Below are positions 4,604-11,275 of a stretch of DNA of 64,000 bases, piece by piece. The translations under genes were made by a program, and so were the position numbers. The stretch's first letter is position 1. Each line of letters opens with the position of its first letter. This stretch comes from an uncultured Gammaproteobacteria bacterium (GTDB taxonomy: Bacteria > Patescibacteriota > Microgenomatia > CAYGWK01), in assembly GCA_964353785.1 (NCBI GenBank), contig CAYGWK010000002.1, positions 40,293 through 104,292 of the forward strand. The letters run 5' to 3'. Below the pieces are notes generated by a model that worked only from the letters and a program-made list of their open reading frames with translations, made no database searches and was not told where the DNA came from.

Positions 4604-5260
4604 TTATTCGTGAATTATAATTCTTGTTCCCGGGTTATCTCCAGTTGACCTAACTGCATTTAGATTATCAACCGAGGGAGTTGTCCAGTAAAAAAGTTTT
4701 TCCGCTACTGGCGTGGGTAAATTAGTACATCCATGACTCATGGTTTGACCAAAGTTATTGTGCCAATAAGTTCCGTGAAGCCCAAAACCATTCTGATAAT
4801 ACATAATATAAGGGACGTTTGGAAGGTAATAATAGGTATGAAGAGCGCGACTTCCCCCAGACATTTTGGCATACTTAAACTTAGACCAGATTCTGTACTC
4901 GCCTGTCGGTGTCCTGGCCCATTTTCCAGTAGAAACCAAGGATTCTAAAAAAAGTCTCTCCCCTTCCCAAGCCCGAAGTTTTTGTTCAGATAAATCAACC
5001 TCAATCCATTTTTCCTCGCCAGTTGCCTCTCCCAGAACTTTTCGTTCGTTTGGGGAAAGTTCCCATCTGGCTGCCAAAGGGGCAGAAATTTCTTTTCCCT
5101 CAAAATAAGCCTGCGTCTCCCCAAACTGGAATCCTCCAGTTCCTTGACAGTGACAACCAGGTTTTTCAAGCAAAAATTTTTGGCTAGACAAAAACAAAAC
5201 CAAAATCGCCAAAAACAAAGCCGAGGAAAGAAGAATTAAGAAAAATCCTTTTTGTTTCAT
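4604..5260 (-). CDS. L,D-transpeptidase (YkuD/ErfK domain), secreted
   Basis: N-terminal signal/TM, catalytic motif HGTYWHNNFGQTMSHGCTNL (His…Ser-His-Gly-Cys). Confidence 0.8.
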   Translation of the reverse strand: MKQKGFFLILLSSALFLAILVLFLSSQKFLLEKPGCHCQGTGGFQFGETQAYFEGKEISAPLAARWELSPNERKVLGEATGEEKWIEVDLSEQKLRAWEGERLFLESLVSTGKWARTPTGEYRIWSKFKYAKMSGGSRALHTYYYLPNVPYIMYYQNGFGLHGTYWHNNFGQTMSHGCTNLPTPVAEKLFYWTTPSVDNLNAVRSTGDNPGTRIIIHE

Positions 5261-5311
5261 TCTAAATTAATAATATCACGAACTGGCAAAATATAGTATT
5301 ATTGATATTGT

Positions 5312-5593
5312 ATGGACTCTCAAACCAGCACCTACGAGAAACCATTGTCAACAACTTTTTTAAGACAACTGCTGATTTACTCTGTAAGCTTATTTTTACC
5401 CCCTCTGGGAATTTGGCCTGCTATTAAATATTTGCGTCAACAGGATGAAAAATCAAAAAAGATTGGTTTAGTAGCGCTTTTTTTAACCATAATTTCAATA
5501 GTGATAACAAGTTGGTTAACTATTAGTTTCATAAACTCATTCAACAAAGAACTTGGTAACCAGCTCAATCTTTACCAAGGTATAGAGTACTAA
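5312..5593 (+). CDS. small hypothetical membrane protein (2 TM)
   Basis: 93-aa ORF with two hydrophobic helices; no homolog recognised. Confidence 0.35.
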   Translation: MDSQTSTYEKPLSTTFLRQLLIYSVSLFLPPLGIWPAIKYLRQQDEKSKKIGLVALFLTIISIVITSWLTISFINSFNKELGNQLNLYQGIEY

Positions 5594-6172: not shown

Positions 6173-6266
6173 CTTAACACCATATTAAAGCATTGTTTAG
6201 GAAAATTGAAAAGTGGAAAAAATTGTCTTCAGGCTCAAAATTTGCTAAAATTAATCTGCATTTTAT

Positions 6267-6337
6267 TGGAGAGTCGTCTAACGGTAGGACAGTAGCCTCT
6301 GGAGCTACGAATCTAGGTCCGAATCCTAGCTCTCCAG
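6267..6337 (+). tRNA. tRNA-Gln (anticodon CUG)
   Basis: Acceptor TGGAGAG/CTCTCCA (U1-A72 as in bacterial tRNA-Gln), U8, D-stem GTCT/GGAC, anticodon stem GTAGC/GCTAC loop CTCTGGA, T-arm CTAGG-TCCGAAT-CCTAG, discriminator G. Confidence 0.75.
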
Positions 6338-6342
6338 CAAAA

Positions 6343-6410
6343 TCTAGGTTCGCCTGCCCCGCTGAAGCCGAATGCTAAACTTTTGTGGGGAATCCTAGTC
6401 CCGCAGCAAA
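6343..6410 (+). repeat. two partial direct copies of tRNA-Gln 3' half (6343-6362 aatctaggtTCGcctgcc; 6389-6410 gaatcctagtcccgcagcaaa) immediately downstream of the tRNA
   Basis: Direct comparison with tRNA T-arm/acceptor 3' strand gaatcctagctctccagcaaaat. Confidence 0.55.
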
Positions 6411-6976
6411 TGAAAGATAAGATTCTCAGAAAAATTTCTAAAGTTGATTATCTTCGAGAGATATTATTACGTCACAGAACTGAGTATAAAAAAATACTAG
6501 AGATAATAACCAAGCGCAACCTCACGCATAAAAGGGGTATTGGATTCTGGTCACTTACCAGAATGATTTTCCCAGTTATTGAAACCGTTGCCGATGTTGT
6601 CGAAAAGGAAAAAGAAAAATTTCTTAGTGAGGAACTGGGAGTCCCTTTTGGATTTGTTGTTTGGGAAATGTATCGCAATTCACTGATGCATACTGATGAA
6701 TTAAGGTACATAGTCTATAAAAGGAAAACAATTTTTTGGTCAATTCAATTAGGAAATGAAGATATTGGCCACCTAATTACCAAGCAGACTGATTCAATGT
6801 ATGCTGCAATACATTTGAGTATTCCTAAACTATATAGAGATTTAGAAACATTTTTAATATCAGAAATTTCCAAAAACGACAAGTCGATTATAAATGTTCA
6901 AGTTGGTAGTTACTTTTCGAAAAAAAGTAAAGGAATTCTATTAAAAGAACTCAAAGAAATACATTCAAAATATTAG
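6383..6976 (+). CDS. hypothetical protein with HEPN-like R-N-x3-H motif (YRNSLMH); possible start at 6410
   Basis: 197-aa ORF; alpha-helical-looking, motif EMYRNSLMHTDE matches Rx4-6H of HEPN RNases (inference only). Confidence 0.45.
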   Translation: MWGILVPQQMKDKILRKISKVDYLREILLRHRTEYKKILEIITKRNLTHKRGIGFWSLTRMIFPVIETVADVVEKEKEKFLSEELGVPFGFVVWEMYRNSLMHTDELRYIVYKRKTIFWSIQLGNEDIGHLITKQTDSMYAAIHLSIPKLYRDLETFLISEISKNDKSIINVQVGSYFSKKSKGILLKELKEIHSKY

Positions 6977-6988
6977 CTATGAAGAAAG

Positions 6989-7030
6989 TTATAAGGATTA
7001 ATTGGGTCCTGACCGACACGCCCAGCCAAG
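6989..7030 (+). repeat. island inter-cassette repeat R2 (tataaggatTaaTTgggtcctgaccgacacgcccagccaag)
   Basis: Homologous to R3 (8306-8347) and R5 (9378-9413). Confidence 0.5.
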
Positions 7031-7070
7031 ACGGGCACCCAAGTGTAGCTGAATTCCATCAATCAATTCC

Positions 7071-7709
7071 ATGTCAATAAACGACGCGGTAACAATTCCA
7101 GAAGAGATAAAGATTCAAATGCAAATGCAGGCGTACCTCGACAGAGCGATTGATTATTATATTTTTGCACGCAAGGCAGTTATGCTTGGTGTGTTACCCG
7201 TAGGCGGTAGCTTGTTTCATATAGCGGTGGAGATGGCGCTACACTGCGGATTATCAACTAAGTATTCCCAGACTGAACTTGAGAAAAGATTCTTGCATCA
7301 CGAACTTCCTTATATGTGGTCTGAGTTTAAAACAACTTTTATAAGTACTAAACTTTCTAAGTTTGATAAATTCGTAAATCATCACCGGCAGTGGAAAGAA
7401 TTGAGATATCCGAAGAGTAAATCAAAAGGATCGATAATCTTTTTTGGTCGTACTAAACCTGATCCTGAAGTTATGAAGAGAAATATGGCGAATTTTCCTA
7501 AGAGCAACATTCAAATAGAAATAAACCTTGAAGACATGGATGAGTTTATGACCGCTTTAATTCTAGCAATTGGTATAAACCCTGACCATATTAAACTCCA
7601 CCTTCAACACAACGCTGAGTTGCAGAAACTTTATCTTGACGAGAATGTTCATCCATTGTTTAGCGCCGATACAAAGGTTAGCTCTACTACTCTCTTACAA
7701 AGGCAATGA
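7071..7709 (+). CDS. hypothetical protein, classical HEPN-domain-like N-terminal half
   Basis: SLFHIAVEMALHCGL…HHELPYM…QWKELRYP resembles PF05168-type HEPN helix pattern (FHaqQavEkaLK…RYP); inference. Confidence 0.45.
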   Translation: MSINDAVTIPEEIKIQMQMQAYLDRAIDYYIFARKAVMLGVLPVGGSLFHIAVEMALHCGLSTKYSQTELEKRFLHHELPYMWSEFKTTFISTKLSKFDKFVNHHRQWKELRYPKSKSKGSIIFFGRTKPDPEVMKRNMANFPKSNIQIEINLEDMDEFMTALILAIGINPDHIKLHLQHNAELQKLYLDENVHPLFSADTKVSSTTLLQRQ

Positions 7710-8311
7710 TGGGAAATAACATGAATAAAAAAATTAAATGTCAAGAATGTAATAGAGAATTCACAAATATGACCACGCATTTAATAAAAGCGCATGGTCT
7801 AAGTAAAAAAGACTATCTTCTGAAATATCCTGGAGCCAAAATAGTTTCAGATACCTTTCGAGAATGGCAGAGAAATAGAATGAAAAAATTATACGAAAGT
7901 GACAATGTTGGTTATAGAAAGATAGCTGGTAGTAGAACATTCGATTTTGTTAAAAATAATAAATTAAGATTATTACTCCAAAGAGACTACCAATCTGCAA
8001 AAAAATGTTTACAAAACGAATTATGGAAACCCGCAATCATTCTTTACGGTTCTCTAATTGAGGCAGTTTTAAGAGAGGCCACAGAGACAGAAGATTTCAA
8101 GTCTGCGCTAGATAAGGCGCTTAAAGAAGAAATAATTTCCGACACGGAATTTCATCAAATACATGTCGTGAAGGACTTTAGAAATTTTGTCCATTTACAT
8201 AAAGAGCTATCAGAAGGAGGGGTAAGGGTAATAAGTGACTATTGGGCAAGAACCCTTTCCGAAATATGCGAGTCGCTTATAAAAAGATTTAGAAAAGTGG
8301 GGAAACTATAA
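7706..8311 (+). CDS. Ros/MucR-type C2H2 zinc-finger protein fused to HEPN-like C-terminal domain
   Basis: KCQECNREFTNMTTHLIKAHGLSKKDY = C-x2-C-x9-H-x4-H-G-L-S-x3-Y as in Ros/MucR (PF05443); C-terminal DFRNFVHLH R-x4-6-H; start overlaps previous ORF stop by 4 nt (operon). Confidence 0.55.
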   Translation: MMGNNMNKKIKCQECNREFTNMTTHLIKAHGLSKKDYLLKYPGAKIVSDTFREWQRNRMKKLYESDNVGYRKIAGSRTFDFVKNNKLRLLLQRDYQSAKKCLQNELWKPAIILYGSLIEAVLREATETEDFKSALDKALKEEIISDTEFHQIHVVKDFRNFVHLHKELSEGGVRVISDYWARTLSEICESLIKRFRKVGKL

Positions 8312-8347
8312 GGATGAAAGGGTCCTAGACCAGCCTGCTCAGCAAAA
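8306..8347 (+). repeat. island inter-cassette repeat R3 (tataaggatgaaagGGTCCTAGACCagccTGCTCAGCAaaat)
   Basis: Contains palindromes GGTCCTAGACC and TGCTCAGCA and tRNA-Gln-3'-end-like tcctag…cagcaaaat. Confidence 0.5.
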
Positions 8348-8420
8348 TAAAAAATCCTTAAGTATCTACCTATCACACACCGGGCTATGATATAATAAGT
8401 TGCCATAAAAAAATATTTCT

Positions 8421-8996
8421 ATGCCAAACTTAGATGAACTTCTTAAAGAAAGAGCCGAAAGACAAAAAGAGTCAGATGAAAGATGGGAAGAATTAAAAAG
8501 ACAGAGAGTAGAAGAAGAGAGAAAAGATCAAGAATATTTTGATCAACAAGTTGCACCATATGAAGAGGCTTTTAGGGTAGCAGGCCTTTATATTGATTTA
8601 AAGGCCTTGTTTCATCATCTTGACACTCAAGGTGCCCCACCACGGGTTGATGAAGTTATTCACATAAGAGCACATCCGGAAAATGATTATTTTGTTTATT
8701 CCTCGATGCAACCAAAAGATAAAACACTAAGCACTGTTATGTCTGCAATGCTTCGAAGAGAACTCAGAGAATACCATAGAACTATTATCGGTTATGGATT
8801 CAGGATTGACTGGAATTATCATTCTATAGATATCCTATCGGAAATTGATCCTACGAGTGACCAACAGATATTTGTTATAAAAGAATATCAACTCGATGTG
8901 CATCATGACCGCCTCATTCCCAATCGGCCATTGCGATCCTTCAAGACTCTTGAGCCAGATGCAATTCGACAAAAACTTTTAAATATTATTACTTAA
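8421..8996 (+). CDS. hypothetical protein (charged N-terminal coiled region)
   Basis: 191-aa ORF preceded by TATAAT-like box at ~8388; no recognised domain. Confidence 0.4.
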   Translation: MPNLDELLKERAERQKESDERWEELKRQRVEEERKDQEYFDQQVAPYEEAFRVAGLYIDLKALFHHLDTQGAPPRVDEVIHIRAHPENDYFVYSSMQPKDKTLSTVMSAMLRRELREYHRTIIGYGFRIDWNYHSIDILSEIDPTSDQQIFVIKEYQLDVHHDRLIPNRPLRSFKTLEPDAIRQKLLNIIT

Positions 8997-9012
8997 ATAC
9001 ACCAGTGACTAT

Positions 9013-9038
9013 TCTAGTCTAGGCCAGTCTGCTCGGGG
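9013..9038 (+). repeat. island inter-cassette repeat R4 (tctagtctaggccagtctgctcgggg)
   Basis: Shares ctag-N-ccag-N-ctgctc-gg core with R1/R3/R5. Confidence 0.4.
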
Positions 9039-9112
9039 AATTTTTATTCCAATATTCTTAAGAATTTGAGAATAGCGAAAAAGATTACCACAATTTGAGG
9101 CAGTTTTGAAGT

Positions 9113-9141
9113 GTTGACAAACTACCATCGCGCGTTGATAC
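9113..9141 (+). promoter_or_regulatory. candidate promoter TTGACA-17-GATACT upstream of small membrane ORF
   Basis: TTGACA at 9113-9118, GATACT 17 nt downstream. Confidence 0.3.
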
Positions 9142-9195
9142 TTTTAATTTATAGTGTTATATTTTAATCATATGAAGAAAGGGAGGTGGAAAAAA

Positions 9196-9366
9196 ATGCA
9201 TGATACTGCCGGTGCGGGCGCTGTTTATGGCTTGGGTTTAGTCGGCGCAGTAGTCTATTACATCCAACATGCAAAAACATTTGGGGAAGGAGTGCTTGGT
9301 TTCCTCAAGGCCTTGGTCTGGCCTGCCATGCTAATATATAAACTTCTGGAATTTCTGAAAATGTAG
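9196..9366 (+). CDS. small hydrophobic protein (2 TM, ~56 aa); ORF track start 9154 less likely
   Basis: Strong SD GGGAGGTG 7 nt before ATG at 9196; MHDTAGAGAVYGLGLVGAVVYY… two helices. Confidence 0.45.
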   Translation: MHDTAGAGAVYGLGLVGAVVYYIQHAKTFGEGVLGFLKALVWPAMLIYKLLEFLKM

Positions 9367-9377
9367 ACACTTTTACG

Positions 9378-9413
9378 GGACTGAAAGTTTCTAGCCCGGC
9401 CTGCTCAGCACGA
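9378..9413 (+). repeat. island inter-cassette repeat R5 (ggactgaaagtttctagcccggcctgctcagcacg)
   Basis: ~80% identical to R3. Confidence 0.5.
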
Positions 9414-9429
9414 ACAAAGGAGATCAATT

Positions 9430-10005
9430 ATGGAAAGAACTACAATAAGTCAAATATCGGTTACAGAGCCGAAAGAAAAAGAAAGTAATCTTGATGAATT
9501 GTACATAAAACAGGGACTAACAAATAATCAAGTTGAGCAGTTAATCTTCTACTCGAACACGGACAAAGAAGTCCAAAGATTCACTTCTGACCCAAAACGC
9601 TTCAAAGATAAAAAAGCATTCGAAAAATGGAGACAAAAAGGTAGGATTATTTACACCATAACAGACCTTGAGGATAATTTACTTGGAATTATCTGGTTTG
9701 GCGAGGAACCCTTACCTCAAAGAGAATTTACCCAAACCTTTAACCCTCAAGAATTCGGGATTACTTTTGCTATCAGAATTTATGGAGAAGCCAGAGGTAA
9801 AGGTCTAGCAAGAAAATTTATGACCGAAACTTTTAAACACCTTATGAGCTCTAGTGTTTACGAAAAAATGGAGAATAAAGGAATCTGGCTAGAGACATCC
9901 ATAGATAATACTCCGGCTCTTAAAGCCTATGAGAAATTCGGCTTCAAGCAAATCACAAATCCAAATGAGAACCAAAAGATATTAATGATTCTTAAAGAAT
10001 TTTAA
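9430..10005 (+). CDS. GNAT-family N-acetyltransferase
   Basis: Motif A-like RGKGLARKF and C-terminal …ALKAYEKFGF; 14-nt convergent overlap with gltX. Confidence 0.7.
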   Translation: MERTTISQISVTEPKEKESNLDELYIKQGLTNNQVEQLIFYSNTDKEVQRFTSDPKRFKDKKAFEKWRQKGRIIYTITDLEDNLLGIIWFGEEPLPQREFTQTFNPQEFGITFAIRIYGEARGKGLARKFMTETFKHLMSSSVYEKMENKGIWLETSIDNTPALKAYEKFGFKQITNPNENQKILMILKEF

Positions 10006-11275
10006 TCGCCGCCTTTAGTCGTTTTAGTGTTTCTTCTTTTCCTAAAATTTCCACTGAATCCGTAATTGGGGGGGTGATTTTGGAACCGGTGATGGCGATG
10101 CGAAAATTCATAAAAAATTCTCCTGTTTTCCAACCTTTCTCTTTTACTAATTCCTGAAGTGTTTGTCCCAGATTTTTCTTATCCCAGGTTTTGAGTTTTT
10201 CTAAGACTTCAAGGGCTAAAGATAATTGTTCTTTTGCCTCTTTAGTAAATAATTTTTTGTCAACCCTGGGCTCTTTGAAAAAGAATCCAGCCAGAGCAGG
10301 ATAATCTGAAAGTTTTGTCAGTCTTTCCTTGACCAAAGGAATAGTTTGATTAATTAAATTGGGGCTGGCTCCTTTTGGAGCAAATTGTTCAATTAATTGA
10401 ACTAGTTGGCTATCAGACTTTTTTCTAATATATGCTCCATTTATCCAGTCAAGTTTTTCAAAATTAAAAATTGGAGCAGTCGTCACCACTCTTTCAAAAC
10501 TAAAAAGTTTTATAAATTCCTCTAAAGGAAAAATATCTTTTTCTTTTGGATGAGACCAGCCTAAAAGACAAAGAAAATTAACTAAGGCTTCGGGTAAATA
10601 TCCTTGGTCTTTATACCAAGATAAAGCGACCGGGTTTTTTCTTTTTGATATTTTTGACCGGTCCGGATTTCGCAAAAGTGGCATATGGGCAAAAAATGGT
10701 AGTTTTTCTCCTAGAGCTTGGTAAAGGAGAATTTGTTTTGGGGTATTTGAAATATGTTCTTCAGCCCTGATGACATGAGAAATTTTCATGGCCAAATCAT
10801 CAACCACGCAAGCAAAATTATAAGTCGGATAGCCATCAGATTTAAGCAAGACAAAGTCTTCGATATTCTCATTTTTGAAAATAATTTTTCCCCGAACTAA
10901 ATCATCCCAAGAAGTTTGGCCAGTTTTGGAAACTTTGAGACGAACCGCTCCCTCATCTTCGTAGGCTTGTTTTTTCTCCAAAAGTTTTTGACAAGTTTTT
11001 TTATAAAGAGAAAGTCGCTCCGATTGCCGATATGGTCCAAAAGGACCGCCAACATCCGGTCCTTCATCGTAGAGTAAACCAAGCCAACGAAGACCCTCAA
11101 AAATTGCTTTTTCCGCTTCGGGGACATGACGCTTAACATCAGTATCCTCAATCCGCAAAATAAATTTGCCTTTAAATGCCCGCGCAAAAGCGAAATTAAA
11201 AAGAGAAAGATAGGCGGTGCCAACATGAGCAAAACCGGTTGGCGAGGGAGCAATTCTTGTCCGAACTTTTTCCAC
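9992..11275 (-). CDS. gltX: glutamate--tRNA ligase (short form)
   Basis: HIGH-type motif PTGFAHVGT, RIEDTD, KISKR (KMSKS). Confidence 0.9.
   Translation of the reverse strand: MEKVRTRIAPSPTGFAHVGTAYLSLFNFAFARAFKGKFILRIEDTDVKRHVPEAEKAIFEGLRWLGLLYDEGPDVGGPFGPYRQSERLSLYKKTCQKLLEKKQAYEDEGAVRLKVSKTGQTSWDDLVRGKIIFKNENIEDFVLLKSDGYPTYNFACVVDDLAMKISHVIRAEEHISNTPKQILLYQALGEKLPFFAHMPLLRNPDRSKISKRKNPVALSWYKDQGYLPEALVNFLCLLGWSHPKEKDIFPLEEFIKLFSFERVVTTAPIFNFEKLDWINGAYIRKKSDSQLVQLIEQFAPKGASPNLINQTIPLVKERLTKLSDYPALAGFFFKEPRVDKKLFTKEAKEQLSLALEVLEKLKTWDKKNLGQTLQELVKEKGWKTGEFFMNFRIAITGSKITPPITDSVEILGKEETLKRLKAAIKIL

What the first reader, a model, noticed from the sequence alone, without database searches (positions are those of the whole stretch)
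7706..8311. Ros/MucR-type zinc finger fused to a HEPN-like domain
The N-terminus carries C-x2-C-x9-H-x4-H followed by GLSKKDY, which matches the Ros/MucR DNA-binding finger (CLECG…HL…H-G-M/L-T/S-PEEY). The C-terminal helical region carries DFRNFVHLH, an R-x4-6-H motif as in HEPN RNases. A DNA-binding finger fused to a putative RNase domain is unusual and could be an autoregulated toxin or defence effector. It is translationally coupled to the upstream HEPN-like ORF by a 4-nt overlap.
Basis: partly seen in the sequence, partly recalled or inferred. Interest (0 to 1): 0.6.

Follow-up and report, generated by a model that had tools for sequence, protein, structure and literature searches.

The report
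Ros-type zinc finger fused to HEPN RNase
This gene from a candidate-phyla-radiation (CPR) bacterium really does fuse a Ros/MucR-type zinc finger to a HEPN RNase-like domain, and it is a stand-alone accessory gene sitting just downstream of a tRNA gene, most likely a latent RNA-cutting defence or toxin protein similar in layout to the recently described RAZR system.

Summary
ORF 7706..8311 carries C12-x2-C15-x9-H25-x4-H30 and DFRNFVHLH (157-165).

**Finger:** the family profile hits the solved Ros finger (2jsp, E 1.3e-5). The AF2 model superposes on it at 1.8 Å.

**Not a gene pair:** the upstream ORF212 also has a HEPN fold, but it never accompanies the gene in about 40 other loci. The real start is probably Met6 (7721).

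**Distribution and context:** the family is CPR-restricted and sporadic. It usually lies directly downstream of a tRNA gene, mostly tRNA-Gln, in arrays of co-oriented cassettes. Each cassette ends in a conserved ~40-nt element.

**Domain swapping:** sister proteins replace the finger with a NUMOD3 motif.

**Best reading:** a single-gene, latent HEPN RNase effector whose variable finger senses or targets something. It parallels RAZR (zinc ribbon + DUF4145) in layout but is not an ortholog. Function is inferred, not shown. I rate it a new variant of a known kind, of moderate interest.

The parts
7721..8311 (+). Zinc-finger/HEPN gene. The most probable CDS is 196 aa. The longest ORF starts at 7706 (201 aa). 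Residue numbers in this report follow the 201-aa ORF.
   Evidence: ORF list. 141 homologs, nearly all ~195 aa and full length. Homolog N-termini align to Met6.
7730..7849 (+). Ros/MucR-type C2H2 zinc finger (residues ~9-48). The zinc ligands are C12, C15, H25 and H30.
   Evidence: Spacing is identical to Ros (C-x2-C-x9-H-x4-H). The family profile hits PDB 2jsp at E 1.3e-5. Foldseek to 2jsp gives rmsd 1.8 Å and probability 0.97. Pfam ROS_MUCR scores 19.9 bits for this protein (below the 25.4 cutoff). 38 of 61 members hit it, best E 4.5e-9.
7850..7933 (+). Basic helix and linker (residues 49-76), the most variable part of the protein.
   Evidence: AF2 places a helix at 49-64. Mean majority frequency is 0.46, against 0.72 for the HEPN domain.
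7934..8299 (+). HEPN domain of the DUF4145 clade (residues ~77-198). Helices: H1 85-103, H2 107-126, insert helix 131-140, H3 146-160, H4 178-198.
8171..8206 (+). Putative catalytic motif K156-D-F-R159-N160-F-V-H163-L-H165-K-E167, at the end of H3 and the start of the following loop. E119 (8060-8062) in H2 is its acidic partner.
   Evidence: [R/K]156, R159, N160, H163, E167 and E119 are conserved in 35-36 of 36 HEPN-module relatives with different architectures. The position matches the published location of the HEPN motif (PMC3710099).
8306..8346 (+). Conserved ~40-nt element that overlaps the stop codon and follows the gene. Consensus: GTTATAAGGAC-TGAAAGG-GTCC(T)AGACCGGCACGCTCAGCAA.
   Evidence: The same element follows orthologs in L010, L011, L012, L015, L043, L047, L048 and L053. 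There is no conserved RNA fold and no Rfam match.
6267..6338 (+). tRNA-Gln(CTG), which heads the co-oriented cassette array. A promoter-like site lies at 6223-6251.
   Evidence: ARAGORN, Rfam 56.7 bits, promoter scan. A same-strand tRNA lies upstream of the gene in 13 of 22 genome loci and about 12 of 21 metagenome loci.
7071..7709 (+). ORF212, an independent HEPN-fold gene in the same cassette. It is not a conserved partner.
6989..7029 (+). Copy of the ~40-nt element after ORF197. It marks the upstream boundary of the ORF212 + ZnF-HEPN cassette.
   Evidence: nhmmer E 1.5e-8.

Best explanation
The gene encodes a ~196-aa, two-domain, single-gene effector.

**Domains (shown).** The N-terminus is a Ros/MucR-type C2H2 zinc finger followed by a variable basic helix. 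The C-terminus is a DUF4145-clade HEPN domain.

**Preserved active site (shown).** The HEPN domain keeps what looks like a complete active-site constellation: E119 in helix 2, and [R/K]156-x2-R159-N160-x2-H163-x3-E167 at the end of helix 3.

**Gene context (shown).** It is an accessory gene with no conserved protein partner. It is placed, co-oriented, just 3' of a tRNA gene (mostly tRNA-Gln) inside an array of small cassettes.

**Inferred mechanism.**
1. It is transcribed from the tRNA promoter.
2. The HEPN domains dimerise to form a composite, metal-independent RNase site.
3. The enzyme stays latent until the variable finger/linker module binds a trigger or target. That could be foreign or AT-rich nucleic acid, as for Ros-type fingers, or an invader protein, as for the RAZR zinc-finger domain.
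4. RNA cleavage then arrests translation, as in abortive infection or addiction.

At the domain level the annotation is about 0.9 confident. The functional model is about 0.5.
For: - **Fold and profiles:**
- **Active-site conservation:** the catalytic-type residues are conserved in 35-36 of 36 relatives spanning at least five architectures. They sit exactly where the HEPN motif is described: the end of H3, a polar N after the R, and an acidic residue in H2 (PMC3710099).
- **Modular N-terminus:** the same HEPN module with the same linker is fused instead to NUMOD3 (P0127, E 4.8e-8), to helical N-domains, or stands alone. That pattern fits a conserved effector with exchangeable targeting or sensing modules.
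- **Variable finger:** the finger and linker are more variable than the HEPN core (0.57 and 0.46 against 0.72), as reported for the RAZR sensor domain (PMC13017515).
- **Experimental precedent:** RAZR is a single ~200-aa zinc-finger + DUF4145 protein and an abortive-infection RNase.
- **Accessory and mobile context:**
  - Only 21 loci were found among 185,579 species genomes, all CPR-like.
  - No neighbour gene is conserved.
  - tRNA adjacency is as tight as 6-33 nt.
  - The array has lower GC than its flanks.
  - The array neighbour ORF212 is found elsewhere next to R-M and OLD-type systems.
  - One ortholog is truncated where a transposase-like ORF ends.
Against: - No biochemical evidence exists for this family.
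- The invariant R159-H163 spacing is x3, outside the canonical R-x4-6-H. This protein also has K, not R, at position 156.
- Both Pfam scores for this protein are just below the curated cutoffs.
- No PADLOC defence model matches convincingly. There is no PD-T7-4 hit, and the best matches are weak ones to MTase_I and PD-Lambda-5_A at E ~2e-4.
- Neighbourhoods are only partly defence-like, and many neighbours are housekeeping or unannotated.
- The family was not found on viral contigs.
- How a solo RNase is kept off is unknown.
- Dimerisation and ligand could not be modelled here.
Confidence: 0.5

Rival explanations
1. It is a MucR-like DNA-binding regulator or silencer. The finger binds DNA, and the HEPN domain serves only as a dimerisation or ligand-sensing module, in the way MucR uses its N-terminal oligomerisation domain or MtlR uses a non-catalytic HEPN fold.
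Against: The R/N/H/E constellation is invariant across relatives that have entirely different, or no, N-terminal domains. That is hard to explain for a mere dimerisation scaffold. The MucR oligomerisation domain is absent, since the match covers only profile positions 62-113. Distribution is sporadic.
Confidence: 0.15
2. It is a selfish, homing-endonuclease-like gene, or the nuclease that mobilises or maintains the tRNA-proximal cassettes. A modular DNA-binding unit (Ros finger or NUMOD3) guides a nuclease to a site such as the ~40-nt element or the tRNA 3' region.
For: NUMOD3 is a homing-endonuclease DNA-binding motif, and it replaces the finger in sister proteins. The same finger module precedes what looks by eye like an HNH motif in P0143. 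The gene is tied to tRNA 3' flanks of several tRNA species and to a conserved terminal element, which also follows NUMOD3-HEPN genes. No recombinase recurs in the arrays.
Against: Characterised HEPN domains are RNases, not DNases (PMC3710099). Other cassettes carry the element without a HEPN-module gene of this type, for example ORF191 and ORF70 in the window. All loci were fetched through the HEPN gene, so the association with the element is biased. No target-site duplication or empty site was examined.
Confidence: 0.12
3. It forms a two-gene toxin-antitoxin or HEPN-HEPN module with the overlapping upstream ORF212.
For: The two lie in the same cassette, with a 4-nt ATGA overlap if the 7706 start is used. 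ORF212 has a HEPN fold.
Against: ORF212 is absent within ±5-6 kb of the gene in all other loci. ORF212 homologs never have a ZnF-HEPN neighbour. The conserved start is probably 7721. There is no profile similarity between the two (hhalign probability 0.2%).
Confidence: 0.03
4. It is a tRNA-linked housekeeping RNA-processing or quality-control enzyme for tRNA-Gln.
For: It is tightly adjacent to, and probably co-transcribed with, tRNA-Gln in many loci. Some HEPN enzymes act on tRNA (own knowledge: PrrC, RloC).
Against: The phyletic distribution is sporadic. Several different tRNA species (Gln, Glu, Ser) lie adjacent. About 40% of loci have no tRNA nearby. The gene is separated from the tRNA by other cassettes in this window. 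An IS-disrupted copy exists.
Confidence: 0.07

Closest known systems
RAZR / PD-T7-4 (ring-activated zinc-finger RNase; Zhang et al., Nature 2026, PMC13017515)
   Same: It is a single ~200-aa protein. It has an N-terminal zinc-binding domain, a linker, and a C-terminal DUF4145-type divergent HEPN with the catalytic R/H near residues 146-160. The zinc domain is the most variable part. It is a stand-alone gene with no partner.
   Different: The RAZR finger is a Cys4 zinc ribbon, whereas here it is a Ros-type C2H2 fold. RAZR's catalytic pair is R146/H154 (x7), whereas here it is [R/K]156-x2-R159-N-x2-H163. No PADLOC PD-T7-4 hit appears for any of 61 members. There is no detectable sequence similarity to any solved chain in the HEPN half. 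The hosts are CPR bacteria, not enterobacteria. The trigger and any oligomeric ring are unknown.
Ros/MucR zinc-finger regulators (PF05443; Ros87 structure 2jsp)
   Same: It has the same C-x2-C-x9-H-x4-H ligand spacing, the conserved F/L/Y/P core residues, a βββαα-type fold, and a basic region after the finger.
   Different: It lacks the MucR N-terminal oligomerisation domain. The finger is N-terminal and fused to a HEPN domain. It scores below the Pfam cutoff for this protein. It is not alphaproteobacterial.
DUF4145 (PF13643) HEPN family of R-M and defence contexts (Anantharaman et al. 2013, PMC3710099)
   Same: It has the HEPN four-helix core with an insert between H2 and H3. It has a conserved R-N...H at the end of H3 and an acidic residue in H2. 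Fusions of DUF4145 to DNA-binding or zinc modules (zinc ribbon, sigma-HTH) are already listed for the family.
   Different: The score is marginally sub-threshold (22.4 against 23.1 bits). The N-to-H spacing looks shorter than in RAZR. The Ros-finger fusion is not listed in that survey. The context is tRNA-proximal cassettes rather than R-M operons.
Unnamed NUMOD3-HEPN small proteins (P0127, P0128, P0130, P0134, P0136, P0137)
   Same: They are the closest relatives of the HEPN half (30-38% identity to this protein's HEPN module). They share the linker (G[KR]K..F.[FW]), the motif, the size, the tRNA-adjacent position and the 3' element.
   Different: The N-terminal module is a NUMOD3 motif instead of a zinc finger.
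Integron cassettes (attC) and tRNA-targeting island builders such as tycheposons (own knowledge, not checked here)
   Same: The array consists of co-oriented, mostly single-gene, apparently promoter-less cassettes. Each ends in a repeated site and lies downstream of one fixed anchor with a promoter. The cargo is enriched in toxin- or defence-like genes.
   Different: No integrase was found in the window or recurrently in the arrays. The element is conserved in sequence rather than structure and lacks the GTTRRRY core. The anchor is a tRNA gene. Mobility is not demonstrated.

Membership tests
Ros/MucR zinc-finger domain (PF05443) | C-x2-C-x9-H-x3/4-H zinc-ligand spacing | tested here: met
   C12, C15, H25 and H30 read from the sequence. 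They are conserved in at least 90-100% of 61 homologs.
Ros/MucR zinc-finger domain (PF05443) | Profile match above the curated Pfam cutoff | tested here: not met
   This protein scores 19.9 bits against a 25.4 cutoff, E 8e-4. However, 38 of 61 family members match at E<=1e-3 (best 4.5e-9). The family profile also hits Ros 2jsp at E 1.3e-5.
Ros/MucR zinc-finger domain (PF05443) | Ros87-type fold (short β-strands plus two helices around the zinc site) | tested here: met
   AF2 pLDDT is about 93 over residues 11-50, with β 9-10, β 17-18, and helices 23-30 and 34-40. Foldseek to 2jsp gives rmsd 1.8 Å over 46 columns, probability 0.97, although the E-value is only 1.6.
MucR-family regulator (full-length) | N-terminal oligomerisation domain preceding the finger | tested here: not met
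   The Pfam match covers profile positions 62-113 of 123 only. The finger starts at residue ~7.
HEPN superfamily | Four-helix up-down bundle with an insert between helices 2 and 3 | tested here: met
   [not shown]
HEPN superfamily | R-x4-6-H motif at the end of helix 3, with a polar residue after the R | tested here: inconclusive
   The motif is in the right place, and N160 follows R159. The invariant pair R159/H163 is x3. [R/K]156-x6-H163 fits, but this protein has K156. R159-x5-H165 fits, but H165 is conserved only in the narrow family.
HEPN superfamily | Conserved acidic residue in helix 2 (often E-x3-[KR]) | tested here: met
   E119 is conserved in 35 of 36 diverse relatives. This protein has E119-x3-R123.
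HEPN superfamily | Metal-independent RNase activity through a dimeric composite site | not testable with these tools
   No biochemical assay or multimer modelling was available.
DUF4145 (PF13643) | Profile match above the curated Pfam cutoff | tested here: not met
   This protein scores 22.4 bits against a 23.1 cutoff, E 1.3e-4. 41 of 61 members match at E<=1e-3, best 1.6e-7.
RAZR / PD-T7-4 | Match to the PADLOC PD-T7-4 model (orthology) | tested here: not met
   No PD-T7-4 hit for this protein at E<=10, or for any of 61 members at E<=0.01. I assume the model is in PADLOC-DB 2.0.0, because the sibling PD-Lambda-5 models are.
RAZR / PD-T7-4 | N-terminal Cys4 zinc-ribbon sensor domain | tested here: not met
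   The finger here is the C2H2 Ros type. RAZR's is a Cys4 ribbon (PMC13017515).
RAZR / PD-T7-4 | Activation by assembly around phage ring proteins; abortive infection | not testable with these tools
   This needs phage and host experiments. No cultured host exists.
HEPN-MNT type II toxin-antitoxin | Adjacent minimal nucleotidyltransferase (or other conserved) partner gene | tested here: not met
   There is no conserved neighbour in 22 genome loci. The window's neighbours are absent from the other loci.
Integron gene cassette | IntI integrase with attI, and attC sites with R''/R' (GTTRRRY) cores | tested here: not met
   No integrase ORF lies in window 1-13 kb. No recurrent recombinase was found among 102 neighbour ORFs. 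The element consensus lacks GTTRRRY.

The most novel reading that the evidence does not exclude
The gene is a recurrent cargo, or even the dedicated nuclease, of a previously undescribed cassette system in CPR bacteria that apparently lacks an integrase. In this reading, single-gene cassettes stack co-directionally 3' of a tRNA gene (mainly tRNA-Gln). They are expressed from the tRNA promoter, and each is delimited by a conserved ~40-nt sequence element. The finger-HEPN and NUMOD3-HEPN proteins would recognise that element, as DNA or in the array transcript, to mobilise, process or police the cassettes.
Probability: 0.15. Interest if true: 0.8.

Novelty: new variant of a known kind. Interest (0 to 1): 0.5.

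Why it matters
- **A second zinc-finger + DUF4145 lineage.** RAZR has just shown that a zinc finger joined to a DUF4145 HEPN RNase can work as a complete one-protein immune sensor and effector. This family is a structurally distinct version of that design, with a Ros-type finger in place of the zinc ribbon.
- **CPR immunity is poorly known.** The family is confined to CPR/Patescibacteria, whose immune repertoire is largely uncharacterised and which cannot be studied by classical genetics.
- **Swappable N-terminal modules.** The finger, NUMOD3, or no N-terminal domain at all sit on an invariant HEPN core. That gives a natural series of domain swaps for asking how HEPN RNases are targeted or triggered.
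- **The genomic setting may be the more original lead.** tRNA-anchored arrays of cassettes bounded by a conserved 40-nt element may show how ultra-small genomes acquire and express accessory genes.

Tried and rejected
- **ORF212 as partner or antitoxin:** rejected. It does not co-occur with the gene in any other locus.
- **Downstream ~190-aa gene as conserved partner:** rejected. The downstream genes in L001, L004 and L007 share only 17-21% identity with the window's.
- **The 3' element as a structured RNA or known RNA family:**
  - RNAalifold gives -0.19 kcal/mol, with only a weak 5-bp hairpin.
  - Rfam finds nothing but the tRNA.
  - The element is not a terminator, since no T-run follows it and the scan found none.
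- **The element as a genome-wide repeat:** rejected. It occurs only in the array within the 64-kb window.
- **The element or gene on viral contigs:** none found.
- **Direct sequence link of the HEPN half to any solved structure, including RAZR:** none, even with a HEPN-only profile.
- **RAZR sequence from the paper's supplements:** not held.
- **Profile-profile links among the three consecutive array genes:** none.
- **ORF197:** its first search used a wrong frame. Redone, it is still absent from the other loci.
- **Organism identity through the exact-protein look-up:** this returned only a 1.5-kb Logan contig.
- **Literature search for MucR + HEPN:** no relevant paper.
Full report
**1. Observation**

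The window contains ORF 7706..8311 (+, 201 aa) exactly as described. Reading the sequence gives these positions:
- C12 (7739-7741), C15, H25 and H30, with the spacing C-x2-C-x9-H-x4-H.
- GLSKKDY at residues 31-37.
- DFRNFVHLH at residues 157-165.
- The ATGA overlap (7706-7709) with the stop codon of ORF 7071..7709 is also there.

A database search found 141 homologs, nearly all about 195 aa and full length, from CPR/Patescibacteria sources. In a 61-sequence alignment, H25, H163 and E167 are invariant, and C12, C15, H30, R159, N160 and H165 are at least 90% conserved. The motifs are therefore not chance.

The closest homologs begin MEKTIEC, MNKKIKC or MDNKIDC, which aligns to Met6 here. The real start is probably ATG 7721, giving 196 aa and an 11-nt gap after the upstream stop.

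**2. N-terminal domain**

- Pfam ROS_MUCR matches residues 7-58 at 19.9 bits, below the 25.4 cutoff.
- 38 of 61 family members match at E<=1e-3, with a best E of 4.5e-9.
- The family profile finds the solved Ros finger 2jsp at E 1.3e-5, across the finger and the following helix.
- The AF2 model (mean pLDDT 84.9, about 93 over the finger) superposes on 2jsp at 1.8 Å over 46 columns with Foldseek probability 0.97.
- Only profile positions 62-113 are matched, so the MucR oligomerisation domain is absent.

This is a Ros-type finger domain, not a MucR-family regulator.

The same module occurs in tandem arrays elsewhere:
- P0129 has 4 copies, with ROS_MUCR at E 6.5e-29.
- P0143 carries several copies in front of what looks by eye like an HNH motif.
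- P0132 has up to 16 copies.
- The phage family phrog_22215 also carries it (E 7.9e-8).

**3. C-terminal domain**

- Pfam DUF4145 scores 22.4 bits against a 23.1 cutoff. 41 of 61 members match.

The HEPN survey (PMC3710099) lists the defining features: a four-helix core with an H2-H3 insert, the R-x4-6-H motif at the end of H3, a polar residue after the R, and an acidic residue in H2. The model has H1 85-103, H2 107-126, an insert helix 131-140, H3 146-160 and H4 178-198. R159-N160 end H3, H163 and H165 lie in the following loop, and E119-x3-R123 is in H2.

In 36 relatives of the HEPN module with at least five architectures, these residues are conserved in 35-36 sequences: R93, D94, K108, E119, [R/K]156, R159, N160, H163 and E167. 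H165 is not conserved outside the narrow family.

The invariant pair R159/H163 is therefore R-x3-H. The canonical spacing is met only by [R/K]156-x6-H163. This looks like a maintained active site of a divergent DUF4145-type HEPN, but the spacing criterion is only ambiguously met.

**4. Relatives and modularity**

A full HMMER scan of 1.84 billion representatives gave 3456 hits. Only about four clusters have the full architecture.

The nearest relatives of the HEPN half are 147-175-aa proteins in which the finger is replaced by a NUMOD3 motif (P0127, E 4.8e-8). They keep the same linker and motif. Others carry helical N-domains, a long C-terminal extension, or no N-domain at all (L057, L062).

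Within the family, the finger (mean majority frequency 0.57) and the linker (0.46) are more variable than the HEPN core (0.72 overall, 0.81-0.84 around the catalytic helices).

**5. Genomic context**

- **No conserved neighbour.** None of the window's neighbours recurs within ±5-6 kb of 21 genome loci. All-against-all comparison of 161 neighbour ORFs shows no conserved partner.
- **tRNA adjacency.**
  - 10 of 22 genome loci have a same-strand tRNA-Gln upstream, and three more have tRNA-Glu or tRNA-Ser.
  - Gaps are as small as 6 nt (L015), 27-28 nt (L029, L012) and 47 nt (L024).
  - In metagenome loci, about 12 of 21 have such a tRNA, 10 of them tRNA-Gln, at 31-33 nt in L063 and L048.
  - NUMOD3-HEPN genes are tRNA-adjacent too.
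  - Gaps this short leave no room for a separate promoter, so co-transcription with the tRNA is inferred.
- **Transcription signals in the window.** A promoter-like site precedes the tRNA-Gln at 6223-6251.
- **Composition.** The array has 34-39% GC, against 42-45% in the flanks.
- **Distribution.** The family is sporadic: 21 loci among 185,579 species genomes. It was not found on viral contigs. One ortholog (L078/L042) loses its finger half where a transposase-like ORF ends. That identification is by eye only.

**6. The cassette array (side finding)**

After tRNA-Gln (6267..6338), six co-oriented ORFs follow, up to the convergent GluRS gene. Four of the five cassette boundaries carry a ~40-nt element: 6989-7029, 8306-8346, 9002-9040 and 9372-9410. 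Degenerate copies lie right after the tRNA.

The same element follows orthologs and neighbouring cassettes in L010, L011, L012, L014, L015, L043, L047, L048 and L053. It also follows NUMOD3-HEPN genes in L071, L074, L075 and L080.

It has no conserved fold, no Rfam match, no other copy in the 64 kb and no viral match. No recombinase recurs among 102 neighbour ORFs. The only recurrent family is a small GIY-YIG protein just upstream of tRNA-Gln. The element ends in ..CTCAGCAA, which loosely resembles the tRNA-Gln 3' end. I read it as an att-like cassette boundary, unproven.

**7. Mechanism**

- *Shown:* the domain identities, a preserved catalytic-type constellation, a modular N-terminus, solo-gene status, a tRNA-proximal accessory location, and a variable finger.
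- *Inferred:* the protein is a latent HEPN RNase. Its dimeric active site would be switched on when the finger/linker module engages a trigger or target, giving abortive-infection or addiction-type growth arrest.

The precedent is RAZR/PD-T7-4 (PMC13017515). RAZR is a single protein with a zinc-ribbon sensor domain, a linker and a DUF4145 HEPN (R146/H154). Phage ring proteins activate it to cleave ssRNA.

The family here is not a RAZR ortholog. It has a different finger fold, no PADLOC PD-T7-4 hit and no sequence link.

Rivals are scored in the report sections: a non-catalytic regulator, a homing or mobility nuclease, a pair with ORF212, and a tRNA housekeeping enzyme.

**8. Verdict**

The motif spacing needs nuance, and the proposed coupling to the upstream ORF is not supported.

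The protein is a new variant of a known kind: a zinc-finger + DUF4145-HEPN single-protein effector. It has no experimental data and no literature in the library searched.

Interest is moderate at 0.5. The tRNA-anchored cassette array with its conserved boundary element is the least explained and potentially the most original aspect.

Noticed in passing
window 6267-10005: tRNA-Gln(CTG) is followed by an array of six co-oriented ORFs forming five cassettes. Four of the five boundaries carry a conserved ~40-nt element (6989-7029, 8306-8346, 9002-9040, 9372-9410), with degenerate copies at ~6343-6370 and 6385-6409. There is no integrase, no conserved RNA fold, no Rfam hit, and no copy elsewhere in the window. 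The same element bounds cassettes next to tRNAs in other CPR genomes.
   Followed up: partly
window 6410-6976 (+): ORF197, the first cassette after the tRNA, belongs to a rare CPR-only family (8 proteins). It has an invariant, canonical-looking R89-[NH]-S-L-M-H94 (R-x4-H) motif. It has no Pfam, PDB or profile relatives, so it may be another undetected HEPN-like RNase.
   Followed up: partly
[not shown]
   Followed up: partly
L007 3402-3647; L011 3565-3861; L014 4899-5210; L016 4924-5385; L022 5629-5919: A small (80-150 aa) GIY-YIG-domain protein lies immediately upstream of the tRNA in four of these five loci: tRNA-Gln in L007, L011 and L014, and tRNA-Ser in L022. The called L016 ORF starts inside its tRNA-Gln, so its position there is unclear. 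This is the only recurrent protein family in these neighbourhoods (6 of 102 ORFs).
   Followed up: no
L078 ~4670-5411 (same as L042): An ortholog lacks its zinc-finger half. The sequence directly upstream translates to what looks like the C-terminal end of a DDE-type transposase, which suggests insertional truncation. This was identified by eye only.
   Followed up: no
P0132, P0139, P0129, P0143: The Ros-like finger module occurs as tandem repeats: up to 16 copies in the 1352-aa, eukaryote-looking P0132, and 4 copies in P0129. In P0143 it precedes what looks by eye like an HNH motif. This suggests it is a general modular nucleic-acid-binding unit.
   Followed up: partly
L057 935-1342; L062 4936-5340: There are genuine HEPN-only versions (134-135 aa) of the same module. 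They have just a short basic N-terminus (M..K.KSNKKFGRRTFDF...) and stop codons upstream in all frames.
   Followed up: no
window 6300-10200: The cassette array has 34-39% GC, against 42-45% in the flanking Lon, transpeptidase and downstream core genes. This is a mild compositional dip, consistent with acquired DNA.
   Followed up: no
window 9430-10005 (+): The last array ORF is a GNAT acetyltransferase (PF13302, E 1.7e-8). It overlaps the 3' end of the convergent GluRS gene (9992..11275) by 14 nt.
   Followed up: no
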